A stretch of 64,000 nucleotides of DNA, from NCBI GenBank assembly GCA_964016885.1, contig OZ024740.1:121272001-121336000 (forward strand), given 5' to 3'. Position 1 is the stretch's first letter. Each line of letters starts with the position of its first letter. The stretch comes from Eledone cirrhosa. Taxonomy: Eukaryota. The notes under the pieces were generated by a model, which saw only the letters and a list, made by a program, of their open reading frames with translations, ran no database searches and had not been told where the DNA came from. Of the stretch, positions 2,679 through 62,134 are shown piece after piece. A program made the position numbers and the translations under genes.

Positions 2679-3548
2679 TAATGAGAGTAATAATAGCATG
2701 AGTTCTGTGTGTGAGTTGGAATCTCAATGTAAATGGCTGTAACGTGTCAGTTCTTACATATTGATATTAGTATGTCATGTGTATGTTGGTTGTTGTGAGT
2801 TCATTTAGCATCTTATTGTGTTGTAAGCAATATTTTCAATATTTATCAACTATTTTTTTTAGGAATTCTGTATGGTATGAACATATTATTCTCCAATACC
2901 TTCCATACTGCGTTAGTTTTGCAATGTATGGTGTAGAGTGTTACACTATGTATTTTGTATGAGTACAGGTTAAGCTTGTCAGAGACCATGAAGTGAGAAG
3001 AAAGAAAAGAGAAAACAACTAAATCGTAAGAATTACATCTGCATCGACGACAATGTAAACAATGCGAGACAGGCAAAATTGTTCAACCCCAACATACTTC
3101 AGTAAAGAAAAAAAACCTCCTTATCTCGTTTTGTTTCATCGTTTCCCTTTGTCTTATTTCTTCCGTTATTTACCTCACCTCATTTTCTTGCCCGAATTAT
3201 ACTATGTCCTCTTTCCGTCACTCATTTTCTGCATTATTACATTACTATATCCTCACTTTCTGTTGTCTTCCTATTTCAATCTTATATATATATATAGGAA
3301 CGCGTAGGACCCCGCAGAAACACCCACACACATAACATCTCCCCAAAATGTACCCCTCCCCAACAACATCAGATAACAGAAACACCCACTCACATAACAG
3401 CTCCCCAATATATATATATGTATATGTAGGAGGTGAGTTTTATTGTAGCACAATAAAGCAATGCAAATATCGGATAAGTAGCACTCAACATTTATAGGAC
3501 TGGAGTATAAATAATATAAGATCAAAAGATGGTTAAAAGAGTTCCATG

Positions 3549-3619
3549 TATTTTATTATGCGCATTTCAAAAACAAATATCACCATGGGATGATATTTGC
3601 GTTCTCATCAGATAAAATA
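3549..3619 (-). ncRNA. Type I hammerhead ribozyme
   Basis: TATTTTAT-CTGATGA-stem II (CAAATATCA/TGATATTTG)-GAAA-TGCGCA-TA-ATAAAATA; 8-bp stem I, palindromic stem III. Confidence 0.85.
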
Positions 3620-5216
3620 GGGAGACATGATATGAAGCTTAAAAAACACTTGCGAGCAGTGAAGTGTTAATTCTACATATGAAAAAAAAAGATGGGTATT
3701 TGAGATTGGGAAAAAAGAAGGAAGGGGGAAGGAAAAGGTAAGGAAGAGGAAGAAAGAAAATAAAGGATGACGGGGGAGAAGTATAAGAAGGAAGGATGAG
3801 AGAGGAGGAGAAATGAGTGAGAGAGAGAGAGAAATAAATGTCCTCTTAATAACCAATGTCTTGATAAAATTTGGTGTATGAATGTAAGGTTATATAACTG
3901 GTACTATTTCTTTTACCTATTTTGGTTCCACTTCCACTTTCTTTAAGGCAAGATTTTATAATCACAATTCGTCTTTTAAATACCAACTTAAAAGAACTAA
4001 CACGGCACTCTCAGAACTCATATGGTCCTTAAAAGACAACAATATTAACTACAACATTTCTTGAAGGAAGGTTAGCAACGCCTCTCCTTACCGGAATTCT
4101 TCCCTATCCAGAACATGTAATCTCTGCCTAGCCGAGAAATTTACCATATCTCTAATTTTAATTCTATAATAAATAGACGTACAGATTTATTTTCGCTCTC
4201 CTTGCATAAATCCCATAGAACTTTCCATAAAGTATACAGCTAATATCTCACCACCTAATTAGTTTAACATCTTTTTTCTCATACGCTTTTATATCTTTTA
4301 CACATATACCCATCTTTCTACCTTATTTCAGTATATTATATTATACAAATTACTCATTCTATGTCGTTAGCGGACCCCTTTTTTTTTCTTTTTTATACTT
4401 TTTTCCTTTTTTCCTTTTTTCTTTTTTAATTTCTAATCTTTAATCTGTAACTTTTACTTCTAAATTACTTCTTAACTCATATTATTACTCACTATAGCAT
4501 TTTCCTTATATTCTTGGCCATACAAACTATATTTTTAATAAATACTAATATTACCACTAGTAAATTTTGTAAACATATATTTTTTTGACGTTATATATTT
4601 TTTCTTCCTTAAATTTTCTTCTTTCTTCTCTCCTTCCGTGCTCGTATTAAACCTATTATTTACTTTTTCATATTACAATAAATAGAAACAAACTTAGACC
4701 CTAACTAATTACTCTAAGTTCATAATTCATTAAATCTCTTCTTCATTCAACTTATCTCCTTAATATTTTTATTTTAATAATACATATTAATAAATTACTT
4801 TTCGCACATATTATTAAACCCTTCAATATATAAACCTTAAATAAATACTATTCTTAATTCCTTTTTCCTTAATCATAAACATCTCCATTCATAAACCTCA
4901 TTAACTTTTAATTTCAATTTTTTTTTAGTTTATGTATTATCTTACAACGGTTTTTTTAATTTCTCTCTGTGAGACAGTGTTTCTCAGTATTAAAGGCTAT
5001 CTCTTTCTCTCTCACACTCATTTCTCCTTCTCTCTCATCCTTCCTTCTTATACTCCTCTCCCGTCATACTTTAATTTCTTTCTTCCTCTTCGTTACCCCC
5101 CCCCCCCCCTTCCTTCTTTTCTCCGAATCTCATATATCCATCTTCTTTTTTTTTCATATGTAGATTTAACACTTCACTGCTCGCAAGTGTTTTTTAAGCT
5201 TCATATCATGTCTCAC

Positions 5217-5287
5217 TATTTTATCTGACGAGAACGCAAATATCATCCCATGATGATATTTGTTTTTGAAATGCGCATAATAAAATA
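5217..5287 (+). ncRNA. Type I hammerhead ribozyme
   Basis: TATTTTAT-CTGACGA-36-nt stem II-GAAA-TGCGCA-TA-ATAAAATA. Confidence 0.85.
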
Positions 5288-5325
5288 CATCGAACTCTTT
5301 TAACCATCTTTTGATCTTATATATT

Positions 5326-5654: not shown

Positions 5655-5697
5655 ACGATGTACTAGTTTCAAGCTTATTAGCTATCGTCAGCATCGT
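5655..5697 (-). ncRNA. Minimal type I hammerhead ribozyme
   Basis: Reverse complement of the 6215-6257 motif. Confidence 0.9.
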
Positions 5698-6214: not shown

Positions 6215-6257
6215 ACGATGCTGACGATAGCTAATAAGCTTGAAACTAGTACATCGT
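6215..6257 (+). ncRNA. Minimal type I hammerhead ribozyme
   Basis: ACGATG-CTGACGA-T-AGCT-AATA-AGCT-T-GAAA-CTAG-TA^CATCGT; 6-bp stem I, palindromic ACTAGT stem III. Confidence 0.9.
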
Positions 6258-11564: not shown

Positions 11565-11885
11565 TTCAAAATATTAATAAATAAAAATGTTCTAATAATC
11601 AGAATATATATTTTATTATAAATATTTCAAAGGTACAATTGTGCTTAAGTACGTTTTCATCAGACAATATATATAAGATTTGATATGCGACATATCGCTA
11701 CGGTTTTGATTATTCAATTCCAATAGTGGCATGGAATAATCAAAACCGTAGCGGTATATGGCATATCAAATTTTATATTTTGTCTGATGAAACGTACATA
11801 AACACCATTGCACCTTTGAAATATGTATAACAAAATATATATTCTGATTATGAGAATATTTTTCATTTATTAATATTTTTAATAA
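11565..11885. repeat. About 150-bp inverted repeat with an HHR in each arm
   Basis: + strand 11775-11838: ATATTTTGT-CTGATGA-stem II-GAAA-TATGTA-TA-ACAAAATAT (9-bp stem I); mirror copy at 11608-11670 on - strand; abuts (TA)n. Confidence 0.8.
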
Positions 11886-22204: not shown

Positions 22205-22242
22205 GCAATTGACAATGCATTTCATGTTGAAACCGGTATTGT
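22205..22242 (+). ncRNA. HHR candidate (U3/A8 core, decayed or variant)
   Basis: GCAA-TTGACAA-TGCAT-TTC-ATGTT-GAAA-CCGG-TA-TTGT. Confidence 0.5.
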
Positions 22243-23597: not shown

Positions 23598-24487
23598 CAG
23601 GGTGTGGACGATATTTGTTCGTAATTTTCAACTGCTAATTTTATGCAAATTGTTTTTACTTCCGTTGCCACTCTTGTCTTCATAAAAAGAGTGACTATAT
23701 TTCCATTATTTATTTTCAGAATAATTGATTATGAATAACTTTGAACCTCCAAATTTGTGGAAGAGACACGGAGTTCTTCTGGGAATCCGCTCCTGGAGGA
23801 CAAATAAGACCAGAAGAACAATTCCCAGAACAACAGATGGCTCTCTGTATCATCCAAAGACGTTCCCAGAGTCATTCGGACAAAGTTTCCAGCGACAACA
23901 TTGGTCTTAGGTGTCGTCAGCAGTCAAGATGCCGTCATCCCACTTCCCTTCTTCCCTGAGGGTCTCAAGCTTAACACCGATGGCTACATCCGCGTTCTGA
24001 GTGAGGTAGTAAAGCTCTGGATCGACCAGGTAGCTTCAGGTAGTCCATCCGTGTGGCAACAAGACTCAGCGCCCTGCCATACCAGCCGAAAGTCCCAAGC
24101 CTGGCTGTCAGGGAACTTCGTCGACCACACTTCCCGTGACATCTGGCCTCCCAGCTCGCCTGACTGCTACCCCTCGACTTCTTTGTGTGGGGCGCAGTGG
24201 AACGAGACACCAACGGATCTAGTTGCAATACGAAAGACGATCTGAAGGCTAGGATCACAAGTGCCTTTAGGGGCCTCAGTCGGGGGACAGTGACGAAGGC
24301 CTGTAGCCGATTCCGAGGCCGCTTTGAAGCCGTCATCAAAGCCAATGGCGGGTTTATCGAGTGAGATCGAAAGAACAAGTCATGAAGACATCTGACCCAA
24401 GTTTGATAAATATATCTTAAAAAATAAAACTACTATGTTATTCTTTCCTAGACGGTAATCTTGCGAACAAATATCATCTGCACCCTG
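23598..24487 (+). mobile_element. Tc1/mariner DD37D (maT-type) element, internally deleted
   Basis: TIRs CAGGGTGTGGACGATATTTGTTCG / CGAACAAATATCATCTGCACCCTG with TA TSD; WQQDSAPCH..WPPSSPDCYP(fs)LDFFVWG gives 37 residues between the last two Asp. Confidence 0.9.
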
Positions 24488-24596
<109 letters not shown>

Positions 24597-24599
24597 GTG

Positions 24600-25103
<504 letters not shown>

Positions 25104-27986: not shown

Positions 27987-28381
27987 GTTTTCCAGAGGGG
28001 ATGGGGTGAATGTTATCTGTCGGATAGGTGCGATACGTGTCCTCCGCTGTTCGTTGTTTTGAATATCTGAGGTATCCAACAGAGTGCGCACGCGTGTGAA
28101 ATGGGGTCGGTCAAGCAGCGATCGGCAGCCGAAATAGTTCTTTAATTGTGGGAGTGGGGTGGCGTTAGCTGTCAATCGATTGTATTATCTGCCCGTACTG
28201 GTTTCTGTATTAGCAGTGTTGAATAGTGTATGGTGGTGGTAGTATTGCCTGCCTGTTTGGTTATTTCTACTGTGTGTGTGTGTGCGTGTGTTGTTGTCTG
28301 GCTTGTGTGTGTGTGTGTGTGCGTGTGTTGGTGCCTCGTTTGTCAGTATTAGGCGTGTAGTATATTCGTATGGTGGAATGC

Positions 28382-28430
<49 letters not shown>

Positions 28431-30360
28431 CGTGCGTGTGTTTTGTCTCGTTTGTTTATTTAAACCAACCTCCTCTCTCGGATCGGTTATCTATTTGTGG
28501 CCCTAGGCGTTTGATCGAAAGTGCGTCCTTGATTCGTATTGTACCGACGTTTGGTTCCGTCGTTAGAACTGTGATAGTGGGCCTTCCGTCTTTGTTTCCA
28601 CATTTGGTTATGTGTTTCCGGAAAGACGAGGCCCTGGTGTTGATGTGCTCCTTGATCCGGATGTGTAGCGGCCGGATTGTGCTACCTATATAGCAGTGGT
28701 TGCACTGGTTACATTCTACATTATACACTACGTATGTGTGTAGGCAACAGTTCGTATGGCTCATCGGGCAGTTGCTGAGGGAGCACGCATGAATCGATTT
28801 CCCGGGTTTCCTTGAGAGGCATCTTCGCAGGGAGAGGCCCGAGTGGGCCCGGTGGTTGTCGAGGCCCTCCCTCCGTATAGTCTTGCGCATAACGTTTATG
28901 GTATTCTCGCCCAGGTGTGGTATTTTAAGGAAGCACTTGCCTTGGGTGTTTCTCTGCCTCTTGCGTCTGGTGTCTCTTATTCTGTTTGTGAGTGAAGCAG
29001 GGTACCCTTTCGTCTCCAGCACTTTGAGGAATCGCTTCGTATGGGTGACACCACTCGCGGGATCGCTGCATCGGTTTTTAATTCGCGTGATCTCGTTCGT
29101 GATGTACCCTCTTTTAGCACTCTTAAGGACTTTGGACTTGTAGTGGATGAACAGGTCCCTGCAGGCTGCCTTGCGGTAGAAGTTGGAGTGGATCCCTCCC
29201 TGTTCCGTGATATTGATTCGGAAGTCAAGCAGGGCAAGTGACCCTACGTCGCTTGGATGTTCAACACTAAAATCAATGTTCTCGTCCGTGTGGATTAGAC
29301 GCGTTCCATCAGTATATTAACGGCCGGGAGTGCCGGGACTGGACCGTGGTGTAAAGAGCGACTACATCAAGGCTGAAGGCTTACACTGCTTCGGGCTCAC
29401 CACCACTGACATTCACCAACTCCTATCCATCGTCGTTGACAACACATACTTCGGATTTCTCGACCAAACATACCAGCAAACCTCGGGACTACCCATGGGA
29501 TCAAGCCAGTCGGGTGTACTAGCGATCTCGTACAAGGACAGCCTCGAGCGCAAGGCCGTCAACACCTGACACCCCAACGCCGTCGCCTTTTTCTCAAGGT
29601 ACGTGGACGATATCCTCATCCTCACATCTTCCCAAGAGATGGCGAACAGAATCTATGAGACGTTCAACACGGACGAGAACATTAATTTCAGTGTTGAACA
29701 CCGCAGCGACGACGGGTCACTTGCCCTCCTCGACTTCCAAATCAACATCACGGAACAGGGAGGGATCCACTCCAACTTCTACCGCGAGGCAGCCTGCAGG
29801 GACCTTTTCGTCCACTACGTGTCGGCCCTCCCCAACAGTGCTAAAAGAGGTTACATCAAGAACGAGATCACGCAAATTAAAAACAGATGCAGCGATCCCG
29901 CGAGTGGTGTCACACATACGAAGCGATTCCTCAAAGTGCTGTAGACGAAAGTGTACCCTGCCTCACTCACAAACAGAATAAGAGACACCAGACTCAAGAG
30001 GCAGAGAAATACCCAAGGCAAGTGCTTCCTTAAAATACCATACCTGCGCGAGAATACCACCAACGCTATCCGCAAGGATATACGGAGGGAGGGCCTCGAC
30101 ATCCACCTGATCCACTTGGGCCCCTCCCTGCGAAGATGCCTCTCCAGGAAACCCGGGAAATCGACTGACGCGTGCTCCCTCAGCAACTGCCCGATGCGCC
30201 ATACAAACTGTTGCTTACGCACATACGTCGTGTATAAGGTAGAATGTAACAAGTGCAACCACTACTATATAGGTAACACAATCCGTCCGCTACACTTCTG
30301 GATCAGGGAGAACATCAACACAAGAGCCTCGTCTTTCCGGAAACACATAACCAAATGCGG

Positions 30361-30426
<66 letters not shown>

Positions 30427-30445
30427 ACACCCACCCACACACACA

Positions 30446-30491
<46 letters not shown>

Positions 30492-30848
30492 AGCATTCCG
30501 CCATAGGAATATACTACACTGCTAATACAGACAAGCGAGACAACAACACACGCACACACACACACACAGTAGCATTCACCAAACAGGCAGGCAATACTAC
30601 CACCACCACACACTATTCAACACTGCTAATACAGAAACCAGTACGGGCAGATAATACAATGGATTGACAGCTAACGCCACCCTACTCCCACAATTAAAAG
30701 AACTATTTCGGCCGCCGATCTCTGCTTTATCGACCCCATTTCAGCGCGTGCGCGCTCTGCTGAATACCTTATATATTCAAAACAACGAACAGCGAGGACG
30801 CGTACGGATCTATCCGACAGATAAACCTTTCCCCCACCCCCGAAAAAC

Positions 30849-47754: not shown

Positions 47755-47806
<52 letters not shown>

Positions 47807-47933
47807 TTAGTTAAGCAAAACAAGACCACAAATTTCACAAGGAAGACATTATTAAAAGATTGTCAACATATTTAGTTTGATGTAAGGAATGTAGAGAATA
47901 ATAATTATAATAATATTAATAATAATAATGCCC

Positions 47934-48054
47934 GTTTACAATTGTTTCGCTACTCCGTAAAATATTTCTGGATCAGATGACTATATATCATAATTGATCT
48001 GGTTCATTTGAAAATAATTAACATATTTAAAAAAACAGAGTGGTTCATCGGAAC
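47934..48054 (-). ncRNA. HHR with ~96-nt stem II (mirror copy)
   Basis: Reverse complement of 49775-49895. Confidence 0.6.
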
Positions 48055-49774
48055 TCAAAGGAATATAAATTAAAATAATGTTACATAATATAATGTTCCA
48101 TATATTAGTTTTTACTATGGTGCCTTTGTTTCATCAGCTGTCAGCCATAATCAAGCAGTACTCACCTATCGAGGCTGCATTGTGTGAGATCTGCCTATGG
48201 GTAACAAGTTGGCTGCCAAGGGGCATATTATCCTTACTAATTAGAGGGTGGTTTCAGGGGAAGTAACTTCTCGAGAGATTAGAGATTGTGTGTATTTTAT
48301 AGTTATGTGCTAGTGTTTAAATTATTTAATTGAGAGACAATGTAGGGGAGGTAACTTATAATTATCGAGTTGTTCATAGCAATTTAACTTATTAGCTACA
48401 ATTAGAGATGGGGCTACATGACTAAGTTGGGTCAAAAACTCTATTGGCGAAGGAATTAGCCCTTCGATGTTGAAAGCTAATTGTTACCTCCGTTCTATCG
48501 TTAATTGGTAGAGGTCTAGATAGAGTTATGTAATATGCTTCCGTAACACAGAGATCACAAATTTCCTTCGTCCATTGAACGGTTGTGCCCTAGCTACGAT
48601 ATCCCATATTAGTGAGTGTTGAACTTTGTTTAATTTAAGGTTTTTAATGAGCCTAGCTAGCGATGTCGAACATCTGTTGCTAGGGTCTCGGAAGGAAAAA
48701 GAGTGCGCGTTATAGCGTACCTTAAAAGGGTTAGAGGTAGACCCGATATAATAGCTGGTATTCGAAGCAGTCTCAACTGTGCACCTACAGACTATGTTGG
48801 GTATCAGGCAGTGTCCATTTAATGGGCATGCATTGGGGTACCGGTAGTTGCAGTTGCTTCTGCAGTTAGTGAGAGTAGGGTTATTTAACCTAAGCAGTTG
48901 GTTCGTGCTAGAAGGATTAGAACGGACCAACATCTTAGGTTAAATAACCCTATTCTCACTAACCGCAGAAGCAACTGCAACTGTCGGTACCCCAATGCAT
49001 GCCCATTAAATGGACACTGCCTGACACCCAACATAGTCTATAGGTGCACAGTTGAGACTGCTTCGAATACTAGCTATTATATCGGGTCTATTTCTAACCC
49101 TTTTAAGGTACGCTATAACGCGCACTCTTTTTCCTTCCGAGACCCTAGCAACAGATGTTCGACATTGCTAGCTAGGCTCATTAAAAACCTTAAATTAAAC
49201 AAAGTTCAACACTCACTAAATTGGGATATCGTAGCTAGGGCACAACCGTTCAATGGACGAAGGAAATCTTGTGATCTCTGTGTTACGGAAGCATATTACA
49301 AAACTCTATCTAGACCTCTACCAATTAAAGATAGAATGGAGGTAACAATTAGCTGTCAACATCGAAGGGCTAATTCCTTCGCCAATAGAGTTGTTGACCC
49401 AACTTAGTCATGTAGCCCCATCTCCAATTGTAGCTAATAAGTTAAATTGCTATGAACAACTCGATAATTATAAGTTACCTCCCCTACATTGTCTCTCAAT
49501 TAAATAATTTAAATACTAGCACATAACTATAAAATACACACAATCTCTAATCTCTCGAGAAGTTACTTCCCCTGAAACCACACTCTAATTAGTAAGGTAA
49601 ATATGCCCTTTGGCAGCCATCTTGTTACCCATAGGCAGATCTCACATAATGCAGCCTCGACAGATGAGTACTGCTTGATTATGGCTGACAGCTGATGAAA
49701 CAAAGGCACCATAGTAAAAACTAATATATGGAACATTATATTATGTAACATTATTTTTATTTATATTCCTTTGA

Positions 49775-49895
49775 GTTCCGATGAGCCACTCTGTTTTTTT
49801 AAATATGTTAATTATTTTCAACTGAACCGGATCAATTATGATACATAGTCATCTGATCCAGAAATATTATACGGAGTAGCGAAACAATTGTAAAC
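49775..49895 (+). ncRNA. HHR with CCGAUGA core and 96-nt stem II
   Basis: GTT-CCGATGA-GCCACTCTGT..ACGGAGTAGC-GAAA-CAATTG-TA-AAC; inner GGATCA/TGATCC hairpin. Confidence 0.7.
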
Positions 49896-50267
49896 GGGCA
49901 TTATTATTATTAATATTATTATAATTATTATTCTCTACATTCCTTACATCAAACAAAGTATGTTGACAATCTTTTAATAATGTCTTGTGAAATTTGTGGT
50001 TTTGTTTTGCTTAACTAATGAATATTTCCAGCTCTGCGCACCTAACCTCTGCATGAACCCATCCACCTAGCTGCTTTCTACTGCATATTGCATATTGAGC
50101 ACATGCCTTTACGCTTTGGCTTCTAACTAACTCACCTATCTTTCCTCTCATATCTCCTCTACTATCTCAATCTCTCTCTTTAAGATTGGTTACTCTTGAA
50201 GTGTGTATATATATATATATATATAACATTGCTTTATTGTACTACAATAAAACTCACCTCCTACATT

Positions 50268-50899: not shown

Positions 50900-51263
50900 T
50901 ATAATTTAATATAAAACGAAAAATCAGTGATGCATCTGAACTTAATTTATTGTGTGTTACAACTGTTTCGCCAGTGGACAGCTGGAGACGAGATCATTGT
51001 GTGGATCTGTCTGATTCTTCCACAGCGGAAGAATATGCTCCGAAATCATTAGACGTGTCCGTCGAACCTGCCGGTCCAGAATCAGACAGATCCACACAAT
51101 GATCGCGTCTCGAGCTGGCTGCCGGCGAAACAATTGTAACACACAATAAATTGAGTTCAGATGCATCACTGATTTTTCGTTTTATATTATATCATACTCG
51201 GCTCTGTTTAGAGTATTGAGTGCTCAACCGGCATACCGTCTATGGAAGCATCTTAGGTACCAT

Positions 51264-51265
<2 letters not shown>
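50900..51265. repeat. Inverted-repeat pLTR-like element with HHR-like motif (51055-51142, + strand)
   Basis: GTGT-CCGTCGA-ACCTGC..GCCGGC-GAAA-CAATTG-TA-ACAC; same family as 23.3 kb and 24.7 kb. Confidence 0.7.
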
Positions 51266-54719: not shown

Positions 54720-54836
54720 AGGTAACAATTGTTTCTATAGTGTATGAGTTACCTATACCTCGCTATTTGAATAATACACAAATATTATCAAAAACCGAAA
54801 GTACACTGTAAGCCAACACACCATGTCATCAGACCT
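54720..54836 (-). ncRNA. HHR with 90-nt stem II
   Basis: AGGT-CTGATGA-90 nt-GAAA-CAATTG-TT-ACCT. Confidence 0.72.
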
Positions 54837-55245: not shown

Positions 55246-57513
55246 TTATATGCATTTAAAAAAAGAAAAAGTCGTTTTCAAACGATGGTTACAGTATAGA
55301 GAACGTTCAATTTTGCTGTTCAAAAGTTTGTTTACCGACGTTAAAATGCAGTATATCTCTAAATTGCATAACTTGTAGAATCGATGATTTTGCTGATATG
55401 CAGGCGCAGCTGCAATAATTTGCCAATCAAGGGAGAACGCTTGATTGTTCCTCCGAAGCTGCCAGGCTTTATCGGCGAGGGTTGTTACGGAGCGCATTTT
55501 CTCGTGCCTGATCGAAGATCGATGTTGGTATAGGCGAGCCTTGAAAGAAGTTGCGGTACATCCGACGTAATACCATTTGTTGGTCCCGGAATTTATTGTA
55601 CACCGGTAGACAATATTGCGTGCTAGGCACTGGTTATTCAGTGGGCACGTACCTGGTTTGGTGCAGTTACAACTATTTTTATGTTTTGCAGTAGAATCCT
55701 GGATAGTTTGGTGGGGTTGCGGTTGTGTGTTAGTGCGTTGCATGTTGCTATGCTGGTGCCCTGAGTCATTAGGGATGTACTTATTCAGTATTGCTGAGTT
55801 GAGTTTTCTAATTAGTTGTTCTATGTTAGGTGCAGTGGAGTATGAGAGTCTAATGGTGCGCGAGTTAAAGATTTTATAGTATTTATGTGAAGTTGTAAAG
55901 TGTTTATTGATTAGTGTATAGAATTGTGAGATAATCTTAGTGCTAATAGAAGAATTGTACACGGGGTTATACCATATGTACTCTCTACGTCTGACTCTAT
56001 TTGCTGGTTTGCACCTGTTAGTATGCCTATTGATGTGTGTGTGTGGTGCAATACTAGTTCGACTTAGATGTGTTTTATTCATAGTACTTATGTGGTTATC
56101 GTCTAGATATTCAATTTTCTCGCAGTAACCAGCTTTTCTAAGTGCGTCATTATAATATTCAGCATGCTTGTTGAAGGTCTGCAAATTAGACGACAGTCGG
56201 GAGATCCTTATGGATATATTTTTAGGGATAGATTTAATAATGGAATGAGGATGGTTCGATTTTACATTAACGTACTTAAGATTTTCATTAAGTTTGTGAA
56301 ATGGCTCTATATTACCGTTATTAAGGTTGAAGGTAACATCCAAGAAGTTGACCACCTTAAGATTGTGTTCAAAGGTAATATTAAGCCCTAGTTCTAAGAA
56401 AAGTTTCCTAATGTTTTTACGTCGCCTTTCTAGGTTTTGTTTGTTCATATTCTTGACTAATAGAAGTGTATCGTCGCGGTATATTCCGCCGTGGAGGTCC
56501 GTAAATTCGCTCTGGAGTCTATGGGCTATATAGATCCCAACCAAATCCGTGACCTCCGCCGAATCATTAGAACCCATCGTAATGTCGAATTCCGAGGGTC
56601 TATCCCTGCGAACCCAATAACTATTTTCAAAGTGCACTACTGTGCGTCTAGCTTCAAGTATAATATTAATTTCCTCGTTTGTGAGGTCCGAGTTAGTCTT
56701 AGCGAAAGAGAGGGCCTTATGCAGGGTTTCGGGTGAAATAAAGGAATAGTATTCATCTATATCGAATTGAATAAAATAAGATTTGTTTTTGTCCCTAATG
56801 TTATTGAACCATCTTATTGCCTGATGAGTATTATCCCATAATTTAATATCTACCTTAGCCTTAACTTGGGGGATAATACGATCTAATATGTACTTACTAA
56901 TCTTACCTATATCGGACTTTGAAGGACATATTAATCTAATTTTAGGGTTAGTATCGAAGTTATCCTTATGGTCCTTCAGATTAAAAGTCGGTGTAGCTGG
57001 GGATAGGGGTACCGTTCTGTCGTCAATTTTCAGTTTCCTAACAATATCACATGCTGCGTTATTAATGTTGGTTAGTGTAGTTGCGTTTGTTTTTTTGTAT
57101 TTCCTATGTAATTCCTTACGTATCAAATTGTTATATGTTTCTACATCCAGGGTGTATAGATTCGAAGTTTTGTCTGCCTTTATGATAATTCCTTTGGTAT
57201 TCCTTAGGTTGTTGAGTAGAGTTTTAATATCTCGTTGCAGTTCGTTTTTCCTTCCATTTGTAAATTTGATTCCGGTTATCATTTTCATTAAGTCCTGTTC
57301 GAAAGAATCCAAAAGAGGGTTAGAGGGTGGGTTTTTGTAGGATTTGAAACCAAACTTCTCGTTGTTGGTGTCCGAAGTTTGTGTAATCCTTTTCCGATCG
57401 AAGTGGAAGGCCTTCCATCTAATCCGCCGAATAAATTCGTTGGTCCTTTGTATCATACCAAGAATGTAATCCTTTTTACCCTGAATGGGTATGTTTTTTA
57501 AGGAATACCACAA
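55246..57513 (-). CDS. PLE reverse transcriptase + C-terminal GIY-YIG endonuclease (755 aa open frame)
   Basis: FIQFDI, ITMGS.DSAE, GIYRDD and VNFLDVT RT motifs; CNCTKPGTCPL linker; NIVYRC..YYVGCT..FKARLYQH endonuclease; likely true ATG at 57527 is 1 nt out of frame. Confidence 0.93.
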   Translation of the reverse strand: MWYSLKNIPIQGKKDYILGMIQRTNEFIRRIRWKAFHFDRKRITQTSDTNNEKFGFKSYKNPPSNPLLDSFEQDLMKMITGIKFTNGRKNELQRDIKTLLNNLRNTKGIIIKADKTSNLYTLDVETYNNLIRKELHRKYKKTNATTLTNINNAACDIVRKLKIDDRTVPLSPATPTFNLKDHKDNFDTNPKIRLICPSKSDIGKISKYILDRIIPQVKAKVDIKLWDNTHQAIRWFNNIRDKNKSYFIQFDIDEYYSFISPETLHKALSFAKTNSDLTNEEINIILEARRTVVHFENSYWVRRDRPSEFDITMGSNDSAEVTDLVGIYIAHRLQSEFTDLHGGIYRDDTLLLVKNMNKQNLERRRKNIRKLFLELGLNITFEHNLKVVNFLDVTFNLNNGNIEPFHKLNENLKYVNVKSNHPHSIIKSIPKNISIRISRLSSNLQTFNKHAEYYNDALRKAGYCEKIEYLDDNHISTMNKTHLSRTSIAPHTHINRHTNRCKPANRVRRREYIWYNPVYNSSISTKIISQFYTLINKHFTTSHKYYKIFNSRTIRLSYSTAPNIEQLIRKLNSAILNKYIPNDSGHQHSNMQRTNTQPQPHQTIQDSTAKHKNSCNCTKPGTCPLNNQCLARNIVYRCTINSGTNKWYYVGCTATSFKARLYQHRSSIRHEKMRSVTTLADKAWQLRRNNQAFSLDWQIIAAAPAYQQNHRFYKLCNLEIYCILTSVNKLLNSKIERSLYCNHRLKTTFSFFKCI

Positions 57514-57734
57514 TGATGTTTTTCCATTTCAAAGACGCGGGTTGATAGGTTGCTCGACTGTAAAGGAGTGTGAAGAATTAGATAATTTGTATTCCAATGT
57601 TACTAAGTAGTTGCATTGGATGGAGTCAACTGACGTCAGAGATTGCTCAACGTATAATAAAGTGTGTTTTAAAATCCGGAGAAAATATGGAGAAAAAATT
57701 TACGAAATGGAAATGCGGGTATATAGAATTTATT

Positions 57735-57851
57735 AGGTAACAATTGTTTCTATAGTGTATGAGTTACCTATACCTCGCTATTTGAATAATACACAAATAT
57801 TATCAAAAACCGAAAGTATTCTGTAAGCCAACACACCATGTCATCAGACCT
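57735..57851 (-). ncRNA. HHR with 90-nt stem II (upstream pLTR)
   Basis: Direct copy of 54720-54836. Confidence 0.72.
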
Positions 57852-59348: not shown

Positions 59349-59465
59349 AGGTCTGATGACATGGTGTGTTGGCTTACGGCGTACTTTCGGTTTTTGATAA
59401 TATTTGTGTATTATTCAAATAGCGAGGTATAGGTAACTCATACACTATAGAAACAATTGTTACCT
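59349..59465 (+). ncRNA. HHR with 90-nt stem II (inverted pLTR)
   Basis: AGGT-CTGATGA-C-ATGGTGTG..TACACTAT-A-GAAA-CAATTG-TT-ACCT. Confidence 0.72.
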
Positions 59466-60079: not shown

Positions 60080-61018
60080 TTTAAGTCGTTAGAAAGCCTC
60101 GACAATGCAAATGGGTAAATCTCCGGGTAACAAGGTCCGGTGGTGGAGAGAGAGATGTAAGTGGGTGTACGTTTAGATGCGTGGTGTGTATAATATGTGT
60201 GAGATGTGTAGAATGAAGGGAAGAGTATAAAGGATAAAAATAAAAATAAAAATAACAACACAAGGGAGAGTTACCTTGGGAGTGATTTAATAGTCCCTAT
60301 ATATTTCGGATTCACATCCATCAACTGGGGTTTTTTCCGGGGTGGGGGAAAAGGTTGTCTGTCGGACAACTCGGAACGCGTCTTTCGCTGTTTGTTGATT
60401 TGAATATCTCAGGTATTCGGCAGAGCGCGCGTGCGCGTTAAAATGGGGTCGGTCGTACAGAGGTCAGCGGCCGATGAGGCAGTGGGATGGCGCTAGCTGT
60501 CAGCCCATTCTCTGCCTGTTTGTTAAATGTTACTGTGTGTGTGTGTGCGTGTGTAGTTGTCTCGCTTGAGTGTGTTGTTGTCTTGTTCATCTGTATTGGC
60601 AGTGTAGTATGTTCGTATGGTGGAATGCTACTGTGTGTGTGTGCGAGTGTGTGTGTAGTTGTCTCGTTTGCGTGTGTGTGTGTGTGCGTGTGTTGTGCGT
60701 TGTTGCATCGCTTGTTAACTTAAATCAGCCATTTGATTTCGCTTCTCTCTGATTGGTTGTTTATTTGCGGTTGCAGTCGTTTGATAAAAAGCGCTTCCTT
60801 GATACGTAGCGTGCCGACGTTTCTTTCAGTCGCTAGAATTGTGACAATGGGCCTTCCGTCTTTGTTTCCGCATTTGTCTGTGTGTTTCCGGAAAGACGAG
60901 GCCCTGGTTTTAGTGTGTTCCTTGATCCGGATGTGCAAAGGTCGAATTGTGCTACCTATGTAGTATTGGTTGCACCTGTCACATTCTATCTTATACACGG
61001 CGTATGTGCGTAGGCAAC
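60080..61018 (-). mobile_element. 3' fragment of a Penelope/Poseidon-type PLE, sister subfamily of 27.8-31.1 kb
   Basis: VYKIECDRCNQYYIGSTIRPLHIRIKEH..FRKH..EALFIKRLQPQIN; pLTR homology; (TA)n flanks. Confidence 0.88.
60295..60330 (-). ncRNA. HHR-like motif with CAGUUGA core
   Basis: CCC-CAGTTGA-T-GGAT-GTGA-ATCC-GAAA-TATA-TA-GGG. Confidence 0.6.
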
Positions 61019-62134
61019 ATATATATATATGTGTGTGTGTATATGTGTTCGGGCGTGTATGTGCTTGCTCTACATATTATGACTTGATTTATATCATACT
61101 ACAGCCCAAGATGTTATTAGATGAATGAAGAGAAAGTGATCGTATTTGATATAGTAAATACCCACAAATCAGAGCTGACACATCGTGAGAGATAAAAAGA
61201 AATCTGTTATGTGAGAATGAATGTCGCCTTATTTTCTCTGATGAGAAACTTGGCTTGCAAGTAAAGTTAATTATGTTTTAAATGTTCTGAAATCTTATTG
61301 GCAATGCGATATGTTATTATTATATCAAAATATTATTGTGCAATAACAGTACTTCAGAATAAAATGAAACGTGTTGAAACCAGTTGAAATCTACGATAAA
61401 TTTTCAATGAAGGTTCAGGCTGTCTGGAATTGTTACTTTGATTAGTGTGTATTGTAATTATATCTACATTTTAAAATGGTTTAAAATCTTACCCTGTTAT
61501 GTGAAATTGAAAAAAAGAAGCTGAAAATGCTGCTGAAGGAAAGAGAATTATATTCATGTTTCCTTAAGAGCACAACTCCTTAATCTTTGAACGTTAAATT
61601 CTAGTGTGAACTTTCAGGTTAATAATTCAATTATCCGAATCCTAAATTGAATCTAAGTTTATAGGCTGTGTGCCAAAACACTAGGAATCAGTTTCAAATG
61701 AAAGAGCCATTCATATACGGAAAATTGCAGTGTAAAATTATTCAAATTTGTTCCAATTTCTAGCGATATTTCTTATGTCATTAAATGCATTTATTTTAAT
61801 GCAATGACGTTCCTACGTACACCAATATTAAAAATCTGTGTATGTCTTCCTCATTTTCTCCTACGATAAATCTCTCTCATTTACACATATTCAAAACTAT
61901 ACATAATCACATACACAAATATATTTGTTTATTTAATATACATTTTCAGATACAGCCGTATTCCTTATAGAATGAGTACTCTAGAACACATTCTTTAAAA
62001 CAGCACTTCTTACTTTATGGGAGATTGATGACCGAAATATTGAACGTAAAGTATTCTCTGTTCAGTTTATATTCTATCTTTTGTTGAAAGTTCAGGTTCC
62101 TCCCAGTATAATTCTCAAACAATGTTAATATATA

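What the first reader, a model, noticed from the sequence alone, without database searches (positions are those of the whole stretch)
49775..49895. Unrelated PLE family has the same long-stem-II design, identical GAAACAATTGT stem III and a U4C core
Seen: the flanks share no visible similarity with the 54-59 kb pLTR, yet the layout recurs: short stem I, CCGATGA (in both arms), a 96-nt stem II closed by GCCACTCTGT/ACGGAGTAGC, and palindromic ACAATTGT. Inference: the structure is under selection, and a shared palindrome might allow hetero-dimeric trans-activation between families.
Basis: partly seen in the sequence, partly recalled or inferred. Interest (0 to 1): 0.7.

Follow-up and report, generated by a model that had tools for sequence, protein, structure and literature searches.

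The report
Oversized, weakened hammerhead of Penelope retroelement
A broken copy of a known kind of animal jumping gene carries a hammerhead self-cutting RNA motif with an unusually long arm and one altered core base; it likely cuts slowly and with a copy of itself, and it is predicted not to be switched on by a neighbouring element that has the same palindrome.

Summary
In detail: CCGATGA, a 96-nt stem II (9 of 10 basal pairs), GAAACAATTGT, A17 and a 3-bp stem I, 371 nt behind a GIY-YIG gene; 2 of 5,000 shuffles give any such motif. The mirror arm has the core but lacks the first stem II pair. The two families are not unrelated: both are Hydra-clade Penelope-like elements (35% identical endonucleases). 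GAAAC..GT is near-universal in that clade (37 of 38 relatives, 25 of 25 published families), so only AATT is a free match; a third family in the window shares it, two others do not. Palindromic stem III and dimeric cleavage are published. Cross-activation is unlikely: a double hammerhead also swaps stem I, which gives 1 contiguous pair between the two families against 3-4 within each. What is not in the sets I could read is the 61-96-nt stem II (relatives 10-29 nt) and an apparently family-wide U4C. The inserts differ in fold between families. Cleavage is untested. This scan noted long-stem-II Hydra-clade hammerheads before, elsewhere in this genome and in another. New variant of a known kind.

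The parts
47800..48910 (-). Left arm: inverted 5'-truncated copy of family A, ending in (TA)n
   Evidence: 96% identical to 48918-50025 over 1,112 columns (I2, I6)
48918..50025 (+). Right arm: 5'-truncated copy of family A (end of ORF plus 3' pLTR)
48889..49407 (+). Open frame for the C-terminal GIY-YIG endonuclease part (172 aa; CNCRYPNAC = CxCx5C, CDLC, CQH); no RT left
49775..49777 (+). Stem I, 5' strand (GTT)
   Evidence: pairs with 49893-95
49778..49784 (+). Hammerhead core C3-A9 with U4C (CCGATGA)
   Evidence: apparently the majority state of the family (inferred)
49785..49880 (+). Stem II, 96 nt: basal helix 49785-94/49871-80, weak AU hairpin, inner hairpin 49829-59
   Evidence: pair probabilities 0.86-0.99 for 9 basal pairs, z -2.1; variants
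49881..49891 (+). G12-A14 and palindromic stem III ACAATTGT (2 bp plus tetraloop as monomer, 8 bp as dimer)
49892..49895 (+). A17 (predicted cut after 49892, GUA) and stem I 3' strand AAC
   Evidence: hammerhead numbering; cut inferred
47934..48054 (-). Mirror-arm hammerhead, same core, A.C in place of G10.1-C11.1
50026..50205 (+). One-sided tail (about 180 nt, end approximate) followed by (TA)n
   Evidence: present on the right arm only
55246..57528 (-). Family B: 760-aa RT plus GIY-YIG frame of a Hydra-clade PLE (RWK, DKT, CxCx5C)
54724..54832 (-). Family B hammerhead, 3' pLTR: CTGATGA, 90-nt stem II, ACAATTGT, U17, stem I AGGT/ACCT
57739..57847 (-). Family B hammerhead, 5' pLTR, 3,015 nt upstream on the same strand
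   Evidence: (D18)
59353..59461 (+). Family B hammerhead, inverted copy
51059..51138 (+). Family C (short two-armed element): damaged core CCGTCGA, 61-nt stem II, ACAATTGT, stem I GTGT/ACAC; relative at 24732-24812 (minus) with CTGGAAGA
5225..5279 (+). Family D, in-window control: 36-nt stem II and a different palindrome ATGCGCAT, behind an endonuclease remnant at 3839-4124; mirror copy 3557-3611 (minus)

Best explanation
This is the type I hammerhead motif in the 3' pseudo-LTR of a 5'-truncated, fold-back insertion of a Hydra-clade Penelope-like retrotransposon; in intact tandem copies it likely cuts slowly after GUA at 49892, most likely paired with a second hammerhead of the same family through the ACAAUUGU palindrome. 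Shown: the motif, its place 371 nt behind the endonuclease stop, the clade motifs, and that stem I pairs within but not between families. Inferred: (a) the 96-nt insert is a loop II expansion that the core tolerates because only the basal helix matters, and it removes the usual loop II-stem I contact; (b) U4C, a 3-bp stem I and the C.A mismatch lower the rate, which suits an element whose genomic copies run 130-310 nt past the cut site and so were copied from uncut or rejoined RNA; (c) the element's own protein may assist folding, as shown for a Poseidon element; (d) this locus is dead: its two motifs are on opposite strands, so a read-through transcript would be predicted to form a 1.1-kb hairpin that buries the motif. 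The match with the 54-59 kb family is mostly clade heritage (GAAAC..GT) plus four bases (AATT) shared by descent or by a narrow choice of palindromes; it would allow a weak kissing contact but not a complete mixed double hammerhead.
For: Motif and significance. Clade: RWK, DKT, CxCx5C, CxxC/CxH and (TA)n as defined in PMC8557442 section 11 are in P0001/P0002. Relatives: 38 of 63 families (50 of 78 loci) show a pLTR hammerhead; 37 of 38 start stem III with AC; stem II 10-29 nt; 25 published Hydra families all AC, all U4, spacer 12-26 nt. Dimer energies against stem-II-only monomers: A-A -4.6, B-B -10.8, C-C -11.6, A-B +4.4, A-C +3.9, B-C -1.7 kcal/mol; contiguous stem I pairs 3/3, 4/4, 4/4 against 1/1, 1/1, 2/2. 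Active monomer fold of A lies 5.2 kcal/mol above the MFE. U4C lowers activity in vitro but is tolerated in a viroid (PMC3088659 Discussion). Palindromic helix III, dimers and low activity of PLE hammerheads: PMC4209133. Protein-assisted cleavage, cleavage dispensable for insertion in vitro: PMC11167929.
Against: No cleavage data. The A-A dimer is only 0.8 kcal/mol below two MFE monomers, so even the homodimer is marginal. Invertebrate hammerheads with two pairs plus a tetraloop in helix III can cleave well as monomers (PMC7229834), so a dimer may not be needed. The endonuclease tree joins A and B (96/77) only on long branches with an attraction warning, and A does not join D when B is left out, so descent of AATT and of the long insert is not shown. 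Stem I 3' of 49893 was masked in the read layout, so the family's true stem I may differ from this copy. In two of three B copies a rival fold leaves the basal helix at only 0.14-0.26 probability.
Confidence: 0.62

Rival explanations
1. The family A motif is a vestige: U4C and the 3-bp stem I have silenced it, and the basal helix and palindrome persist by inertia or as a protein-binding structure.
For: U4C, 3-bp stem I, C.A mismatch, no tertiary contact found; weak z of -2.1 and -0.5; common variants are about as dense in the motif (7 rows in 115 nt) as upstream (33 rows in 398 nt) among the 40 rows shown; cleavage is not needed for insertion in vitro.
Against: All other core positions are intact in both arms; none of the 19 core and stem III positions is among the 40 strongest variant rows (about 1.5 expected, so weak); a second natural C4 hammerhead with good stems lies in L011 2928.
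Confidence: 0.18
2. The motif cleaves as a monomer (2-bp stem III with an AAUU tetraloop), helped by the element's protein or by a contact from the insert; the palindrome is incidental.
For: 2 bp plus tetraloop is the helix III of efficient invertebrate monomers; PAc hammerhead cleaves only with protein; the insert is big enough to carry a docking site.
Against: Active monomer fold 5.2 kcal/mol above MFE; no insert-flank pairing above chance (193 to 1000 of 1,000 shuffles as long); near-perfect self-complementarity of stem III across relatives points to dimers.
Confidence: 0.12
3. One reading: families sharing ACAAUUGU form mixed dimers that activate one another.
For: Three families in one window share the 8-mer, whereas two relatives picked at random share stem III in 2.1% of pairs; the 8-bp duplex is -6.4 kcal/mol for any pair; B-C keeps 2 contiguous stem I pairs.
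Against: A-B and A-C keep 1 contiguous stem I pair in both cores, stem II swaps fail, and the mixed A-B fold is 9-15 kcal/mol worse than the homodimers. Tandem copies pair in cis; families D and E in the same window use other palindromes.
Confidence: 0.06

Closest known systems
Hammerheads of Hydra-clade C-terminal EN+ Penelope-like elements (Craig et al. 2021, PMC8557442; seen: passages, section 11, supplement parts 1-2 with Files S1 and S2)
   Same: Type I motif in the pLTR behind the GIY-YIG gene; stem III starting AC and self-complementary (Penelope-2_NV acaa-gt-ttgt); short stem I (3-7 bp); mismatch allowed at the base of stem II; A17 common; (TA)n targets; inverted truncated copies.
   Different: Published spacer between core halves 12-26 nt against 96, 90 and 61 nt here; all 25 published families have U4; none has the loop-free ACAATTGT.
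Minimal and palindromic-helix-III PLE hammerheads (Cervera and de la Pena 2014, PMC4209133; seen: main text parts 1-2 of 4, supplement parts 1-2 of 3). Lunse et al. 2017 was not held; only its title was seen in reference lists.
   Same: Short helix I, longer helix II, palindromic 15.2-16.2 and loop 3, proposed dimer, low activity in vitro.
   Different: The 56 motifs of Fig. S3 all have U4 and helix II plus loop of about 24 nt or less (their descriptor could have missed long ones); C3U-G8A is their core variant, not U4C.
U4C viroid hammerhead variant (as cited in Perreault et al. 2011, PMC3088659; seen: passages, section 8)
   Same: Same core change; much lower activity in vitro, enough in vivo.
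   Different: Viroid context; here in a retrotransposon family with a 3-bp stem I and no visible tertiary contact.
PAc Poseidon hammerhead of Anolis (Frangieh et al. 2024, PMC11167929; seen: passages)
   Same: pLTR hammerhead; genomic copies with a one-sided tail from two internal RT start sites.
   Different: Other PLE clade; overlaps the ORF start; cleavage shown (protein-assisted), whereas here untested.

Membership tests
Hydra-clade PLE | C-terminal GIY-YIG endonuclease after RT | tested here: met
   P0001 aligns full length with RT-EN proteins; P0002 matches its last 139 aa. Pfam itself gave 0 hits for 2 of 2 proteins.
Hydra-clade PLE | RWK and DKT motifs | tested here: met
   Family B: IRWKAF, KADKTSN. 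Family A lacks this part (5'-truncated), so not testable for A.
Hydra-clade PLE | CxCx5C linker; CxxC and CxH instead of CCHH | tested here: met
   A: CNCRYPNAC, CDLC, CQH. B: CNCTKPGTC, CNH; CxxC reads YKLC in the full copy and CKSC in the inverted copy (read by eye).
Hydra-clade PLE | (TA)n insertion, pLTR, inverted 5'-truncated copy, one-sided tail | tested here: met
Hydra-clade PLE | Phylogenetic placement with named Hydra elements | tested here: inconclusive
   EN-only trees with unnamed relatives; long branches; named consensus sequences were not included.
Hydra-clade PLE | Canonical short hammerhead in the pLTR | tested here: not met
   Motif present but with 96-nt stem II and U4C; no second short motif found in the 3' UTR.
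Type I hammerhead ribozyme | Core C3, G5, A6, G8, A9, G12, A13, A14, A15.1-U16.1, H17 | tested here: met
Type I hammerhead ribozyme | U4 | tested here: not met
   C in both arms; a known tolerated variant
Type I hammerhead ribozyme | Three helices in register, open helix I | tested here: met
   I 3 bp, II 9 of 10, III 2 bp (monomer) or 8 bp (dimer); left arm lacks pair 10.1-11.1
Type I hammerhead ribozyme | Loop II-stem I tertiary contact or pseudoknot | tested here: not met
   No insert-flank complementarity above shuffles; non-canonical contacts cannot be seen this way
Type I hammerhead ribozyme | Match to an Rfam hammerhead model | tested here: not met
   0 matches at gathering score in the whole window
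Type I hammerhead ribozyme | Self-cleavage after H17 | not testable with these tools
   No RNA holder listed
Mixed double hammerhead (proposed) | Cross-family stem III plus cross-family stem I or II | tested here: not met
   Stem III 8 bp, but stem I 1 contiguous pair and stem II swap broken at the base

The most novel reading that the evidence does not exclude
A lineage of Hydra-clade elements in this genome has turned loop II into a 60-100-nt domain that gates a detuned (U4C) ribozyme through the element's own RT, and ACAAUUGU is a shared pairing code that lets families jam each other in non-productive mixed dimers, while each family's own stem I acts as the password for cleavage.
Probability: 0.13. 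Interest if true: 0.68.

Novelty: new variant of a known kind. Interest (0 to 1): 0.33.

Why it matters
The role of PLE hammerheads is still open (PMC8557442, PMC11167929). Natural variants with a 90-96-nt stem II and U4C are missed by Rfam here and give ready test cases for whether these ribozymes are tuned down and protein-gated. The three families that share stem III but differ in stem I are a natural set for testing what gives double hammerheads their specificity. The association itself, the palindrome and the dimer model are published, so a specialist would find this a useful extension, not a surprise.

Tried and rejected
Rfam: 0 matches. Pfam: 0 for both proteins. No whole genome held, so the genome-wide palindrome table was not possible. 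Viral contigs: 62 pattern hits, none confirmed. Homologue search with P0002: 16 candidates, none significant. No RNA holder listed. A strict first descriptor found nothing because it allowed no mismatch in the first four stem II pairs; relaxed. Alternative U4 core CTGATGA near 49713: no stem I or II with the GAAA at 49881 (not returned). Insert as an intron: by eye, no good 5' splice site and removal leaves no sound stem II. Pseudoknot: not above chance. Runs X4-X9 hold small shares; only X4 and X7 were laid. In one search the script's single 'C4 family' is an error of assignment: it is a neighbouring motif 340 nt upstream of the L011 gene, whose own pLTR motif is U4; this also slightly alters the stem III tally. 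25 of 63 families gave no motif, many because the contig ends soon after the gene. The complete variant list for 49755-49900 could not be obtained, so the majority state of 49779 is inferred only. Scan look-ups near this place and by sequence returned nothing. Paper searches for a long stem II or U4C in PLE hammerheads, or mixed dimers found no such report; Lunse et al. 2017, the paper most likely to list core and stem variants, was not held, and bioRxiv supplements are closed.

Full report
1. Observation. At 49775-49895 the window reads GTT, CCGATGA, 96 nt opened by GCCACTCTGT and closed by ACGGAGTAGC, GAAACAATTGT, A, AAC. This is a type I hammerhead layout: stem I 3 bp, core with C at position 4, stem II with 9 of 10 basal pairs (probabilities 0.86-0.99), stem III the palindrome ACAATTGT, A17. 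In 5,000 dinucleotide shuffles of the 583-nt 3' UTR a relaxed descriptor was met 2 times, and 0 times with a Watson-Crick palindromic stem III. The mirror arm has the same core but A in place of G10.1. Rfam finds nothing in the window. The 54-59 kb element has three copies with U4, a 90-nt stem II, the same 11-mer, U17 and a 4-bp stem I. The 3' UTRs are not alike as DNA. The inserts differ in fold: A has two small hairpins on a junction (z -2.1 right arm, -0.5 left arm), B one long irregular hairpin (z -4.1 to -4.7). In two of three B copies a rival fold dominates in the wider context.

2. What it is. The motif lies 371 nt behind the stop of a 172-aa GIY-YIG frame, in a fold-back insertion (arms 47800-48910 and 48918-50025, 96% identical) with a one-sided tail and (TA)n on both sides. 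B's motif lies 414 nt behind a 760-aa RT-endonuclease frame. The two endonucleases are 35% identical over 139 aa. Craig et al. 2021 define the Hydra clade by RWK, DKT, CxCx5C, CxxC/CxH and (TA)n targets; B shows RWK, DKT, CxCx5C and CxH (CxxC only in its inverted copy), A the C-terminal motifs. So the families are distant members of one clade. They are as far from each other as from elements of other animals (best hits 39% and 37-42%), and the tree joins them only on long branches: whether they are sisters is open.

3. How special is the shared stem III? In File S2 of Craig et al. all 25 Hydra families with a listed motif start stem III with AC, end it with GT, have U4, and have 12-26 nt between the core halves. 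I fetched 78 related loci from metagenomes (the best 80 of 351 confirmed) and scanned them allowing C4 and spacers up to about 200 nt: 50 of 78 loci, 38 of 63 families, gave a pLTR motif; spacers were 10-29 nt, 37 of 38 began with AC, 21 with ACA, none was ACAATTGT, and two families shared stem III in 2.1% of pairs. The one C4 in that tally is a neighbouring motif in L011, not the element's own. Thus GAAAC..GT is core plus clade consensus, and AATT is the real match. It is shared by a third family in the window (C, 61-nt stem II, damaged cores), but not by D (ATGCGCAT, 36-nt stem II) or by the motif at 5661/6221 (ACTAGT). Three families sharing it is more than simple chance, but they may not be independent. 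CAATTG by itself is not enriched (23 against 29). The long stem II is the clear outlier.

4. Selection and U4C. Reads and contigs laid on 49380-50000 (4 runs) gave 40 shown and 51 hidden variant rows. Every shown row reaches about 42% or more in some run, and no core, stem III or C.A position is among them; I infer that C4, G10.1 and the C.A mismatch are majority states. A contig from another species label (X7) spans the core with no C-to-T change. Of seven shown variants in stem II, three keep a pair (A-U to G-U, G-U to A-U, G-C to G-U), one breaks a helix-end pair, one adds a pair and two are unpaired; none is two-sided. That fits selection but is weak. Positions from 49894 on were masked, and X1 may not be independent of the window. 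U4C is a known natural viroid variant with much lower activity in vitro.

5. Mechanism. Palindromic helix III and dimeric cleavage of PLE hammerheads are published. In a double hammerhead of type I, G12-A15.1 come from one molecule and U16.1-H17 from the other, so stem I (or stem II) must also form between the molecules; this follows from the strand order. Contiguous stem I pairs: A-A 3, B-B 4, C-C 4, D-D 8; A-B 1 and 1, A-C 1 and 1, B-C 2 and 2; stem II swaps fail at or near the base. Energies against stem-II-only monomers: -4.6, -10.8, -11.6 for homodimers, +4.4, +3.9, -1.7 for mixed ones. So cross-activation of A by B is unlikely; a kissing contact of -6.4 kcal/mol could at most distract. 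That a mismatch next to the cut site hurts cleavage is recalled knowledge; my search for a source found none. Against my own reading: the A-A dimer is only 0.8 kcal/mol below two relaxed monomers, and 2-bp-plus-tetraloop helices III work in monomers of invertebrate retrozymes. B has two direct copies 3,015 nt apart that could pair in one transcript; A at this locus has none and is dead. Genomic copies extend past the cut site, so the copied RNA was uncut or rejoined, in line with the Poseidon data; a slow ribozyme fits this (inference).

6. Known, novel, verdict. It works like the dimer-prone pLTR hammerheads of PLEs and belongs to a Hydra-clade element by motifs; it fails the canonical tests of U4, short loop II and visible tertiary contact. 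My seven paper searches found no PLE hammerhead with such a stem II or with U4C, but Lunse et al. 2017 could not be read. Other papers seen: bioRxiv 10.64898/2026.07.22.740005 parts 1-2 of 5, PMC6765202, PMC6466107 and PMC7229834 passages. Earlier notes of this scan describe long-stem-II Hydra-clade hammerheads on other DNA of this genome and of another; I had reached the clade assignment before reading them and did not use them as support. Verdict: real, new variant of a known kind, interest 0.33.

Noticed in passing
window 3514-5322: Third Hydra-like PLE remnant (endonuclease fragment 3839-4124) with inverted arms that each hold a hammerhead with a 36-nt stem II, 8-bp stem I and palindrome ATGCGCAT.
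   Followed up: partly
window 24594-24985 and 50906-51265: Short two-armed (palindromic) elements in (TA)n/(CA)n with GC-GAAACAATTGT-A-ACAC; one arm in each has a damaged core, the other starts inside or near stem II. Likely clipped PLE ends or a non-coding derivative.
   Followed up: partly
window 5661-5691 (-) and 6221-6251 (+): Compact hammerhead CTGACGA, 14-nt stem II, ACTAGT, 6-bp stem I in an inverted repeat family; further weaker motifs at 22209 (U3-A8 core), 34636, 36247 (U3-A8 core) and 11617-11663.
   Followed up: no
window 57528-57535 (-): The likely start codon of the family B gene is out of frame with the 760-aa frame, at an A run; an assembly error or an inactivating change.
   Followed up: no
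window 28141-30698 and 60744-61019: Another fold-back retroelement remnant with RT (YVDD) and GIY-YIG-like pieces, apparently a different PLE type; no hammerhead found by my scan.
   Followed up: no
L011 2922-2968: A well-formed type I hammerhead with C4 (CCGAAGA, 6-bp stem I, stem III ACGCATGT) 340 nt upstream of a Hydra-like gene whose own motif is U4: a second natural U4C case in an animal repeat.
   Followed up: partly
window 23800-24370: Degenerate frame resembling a DD-type (Tc1/mariner-like) transposase, judged by eye from the sequence only.
   Followed up: no
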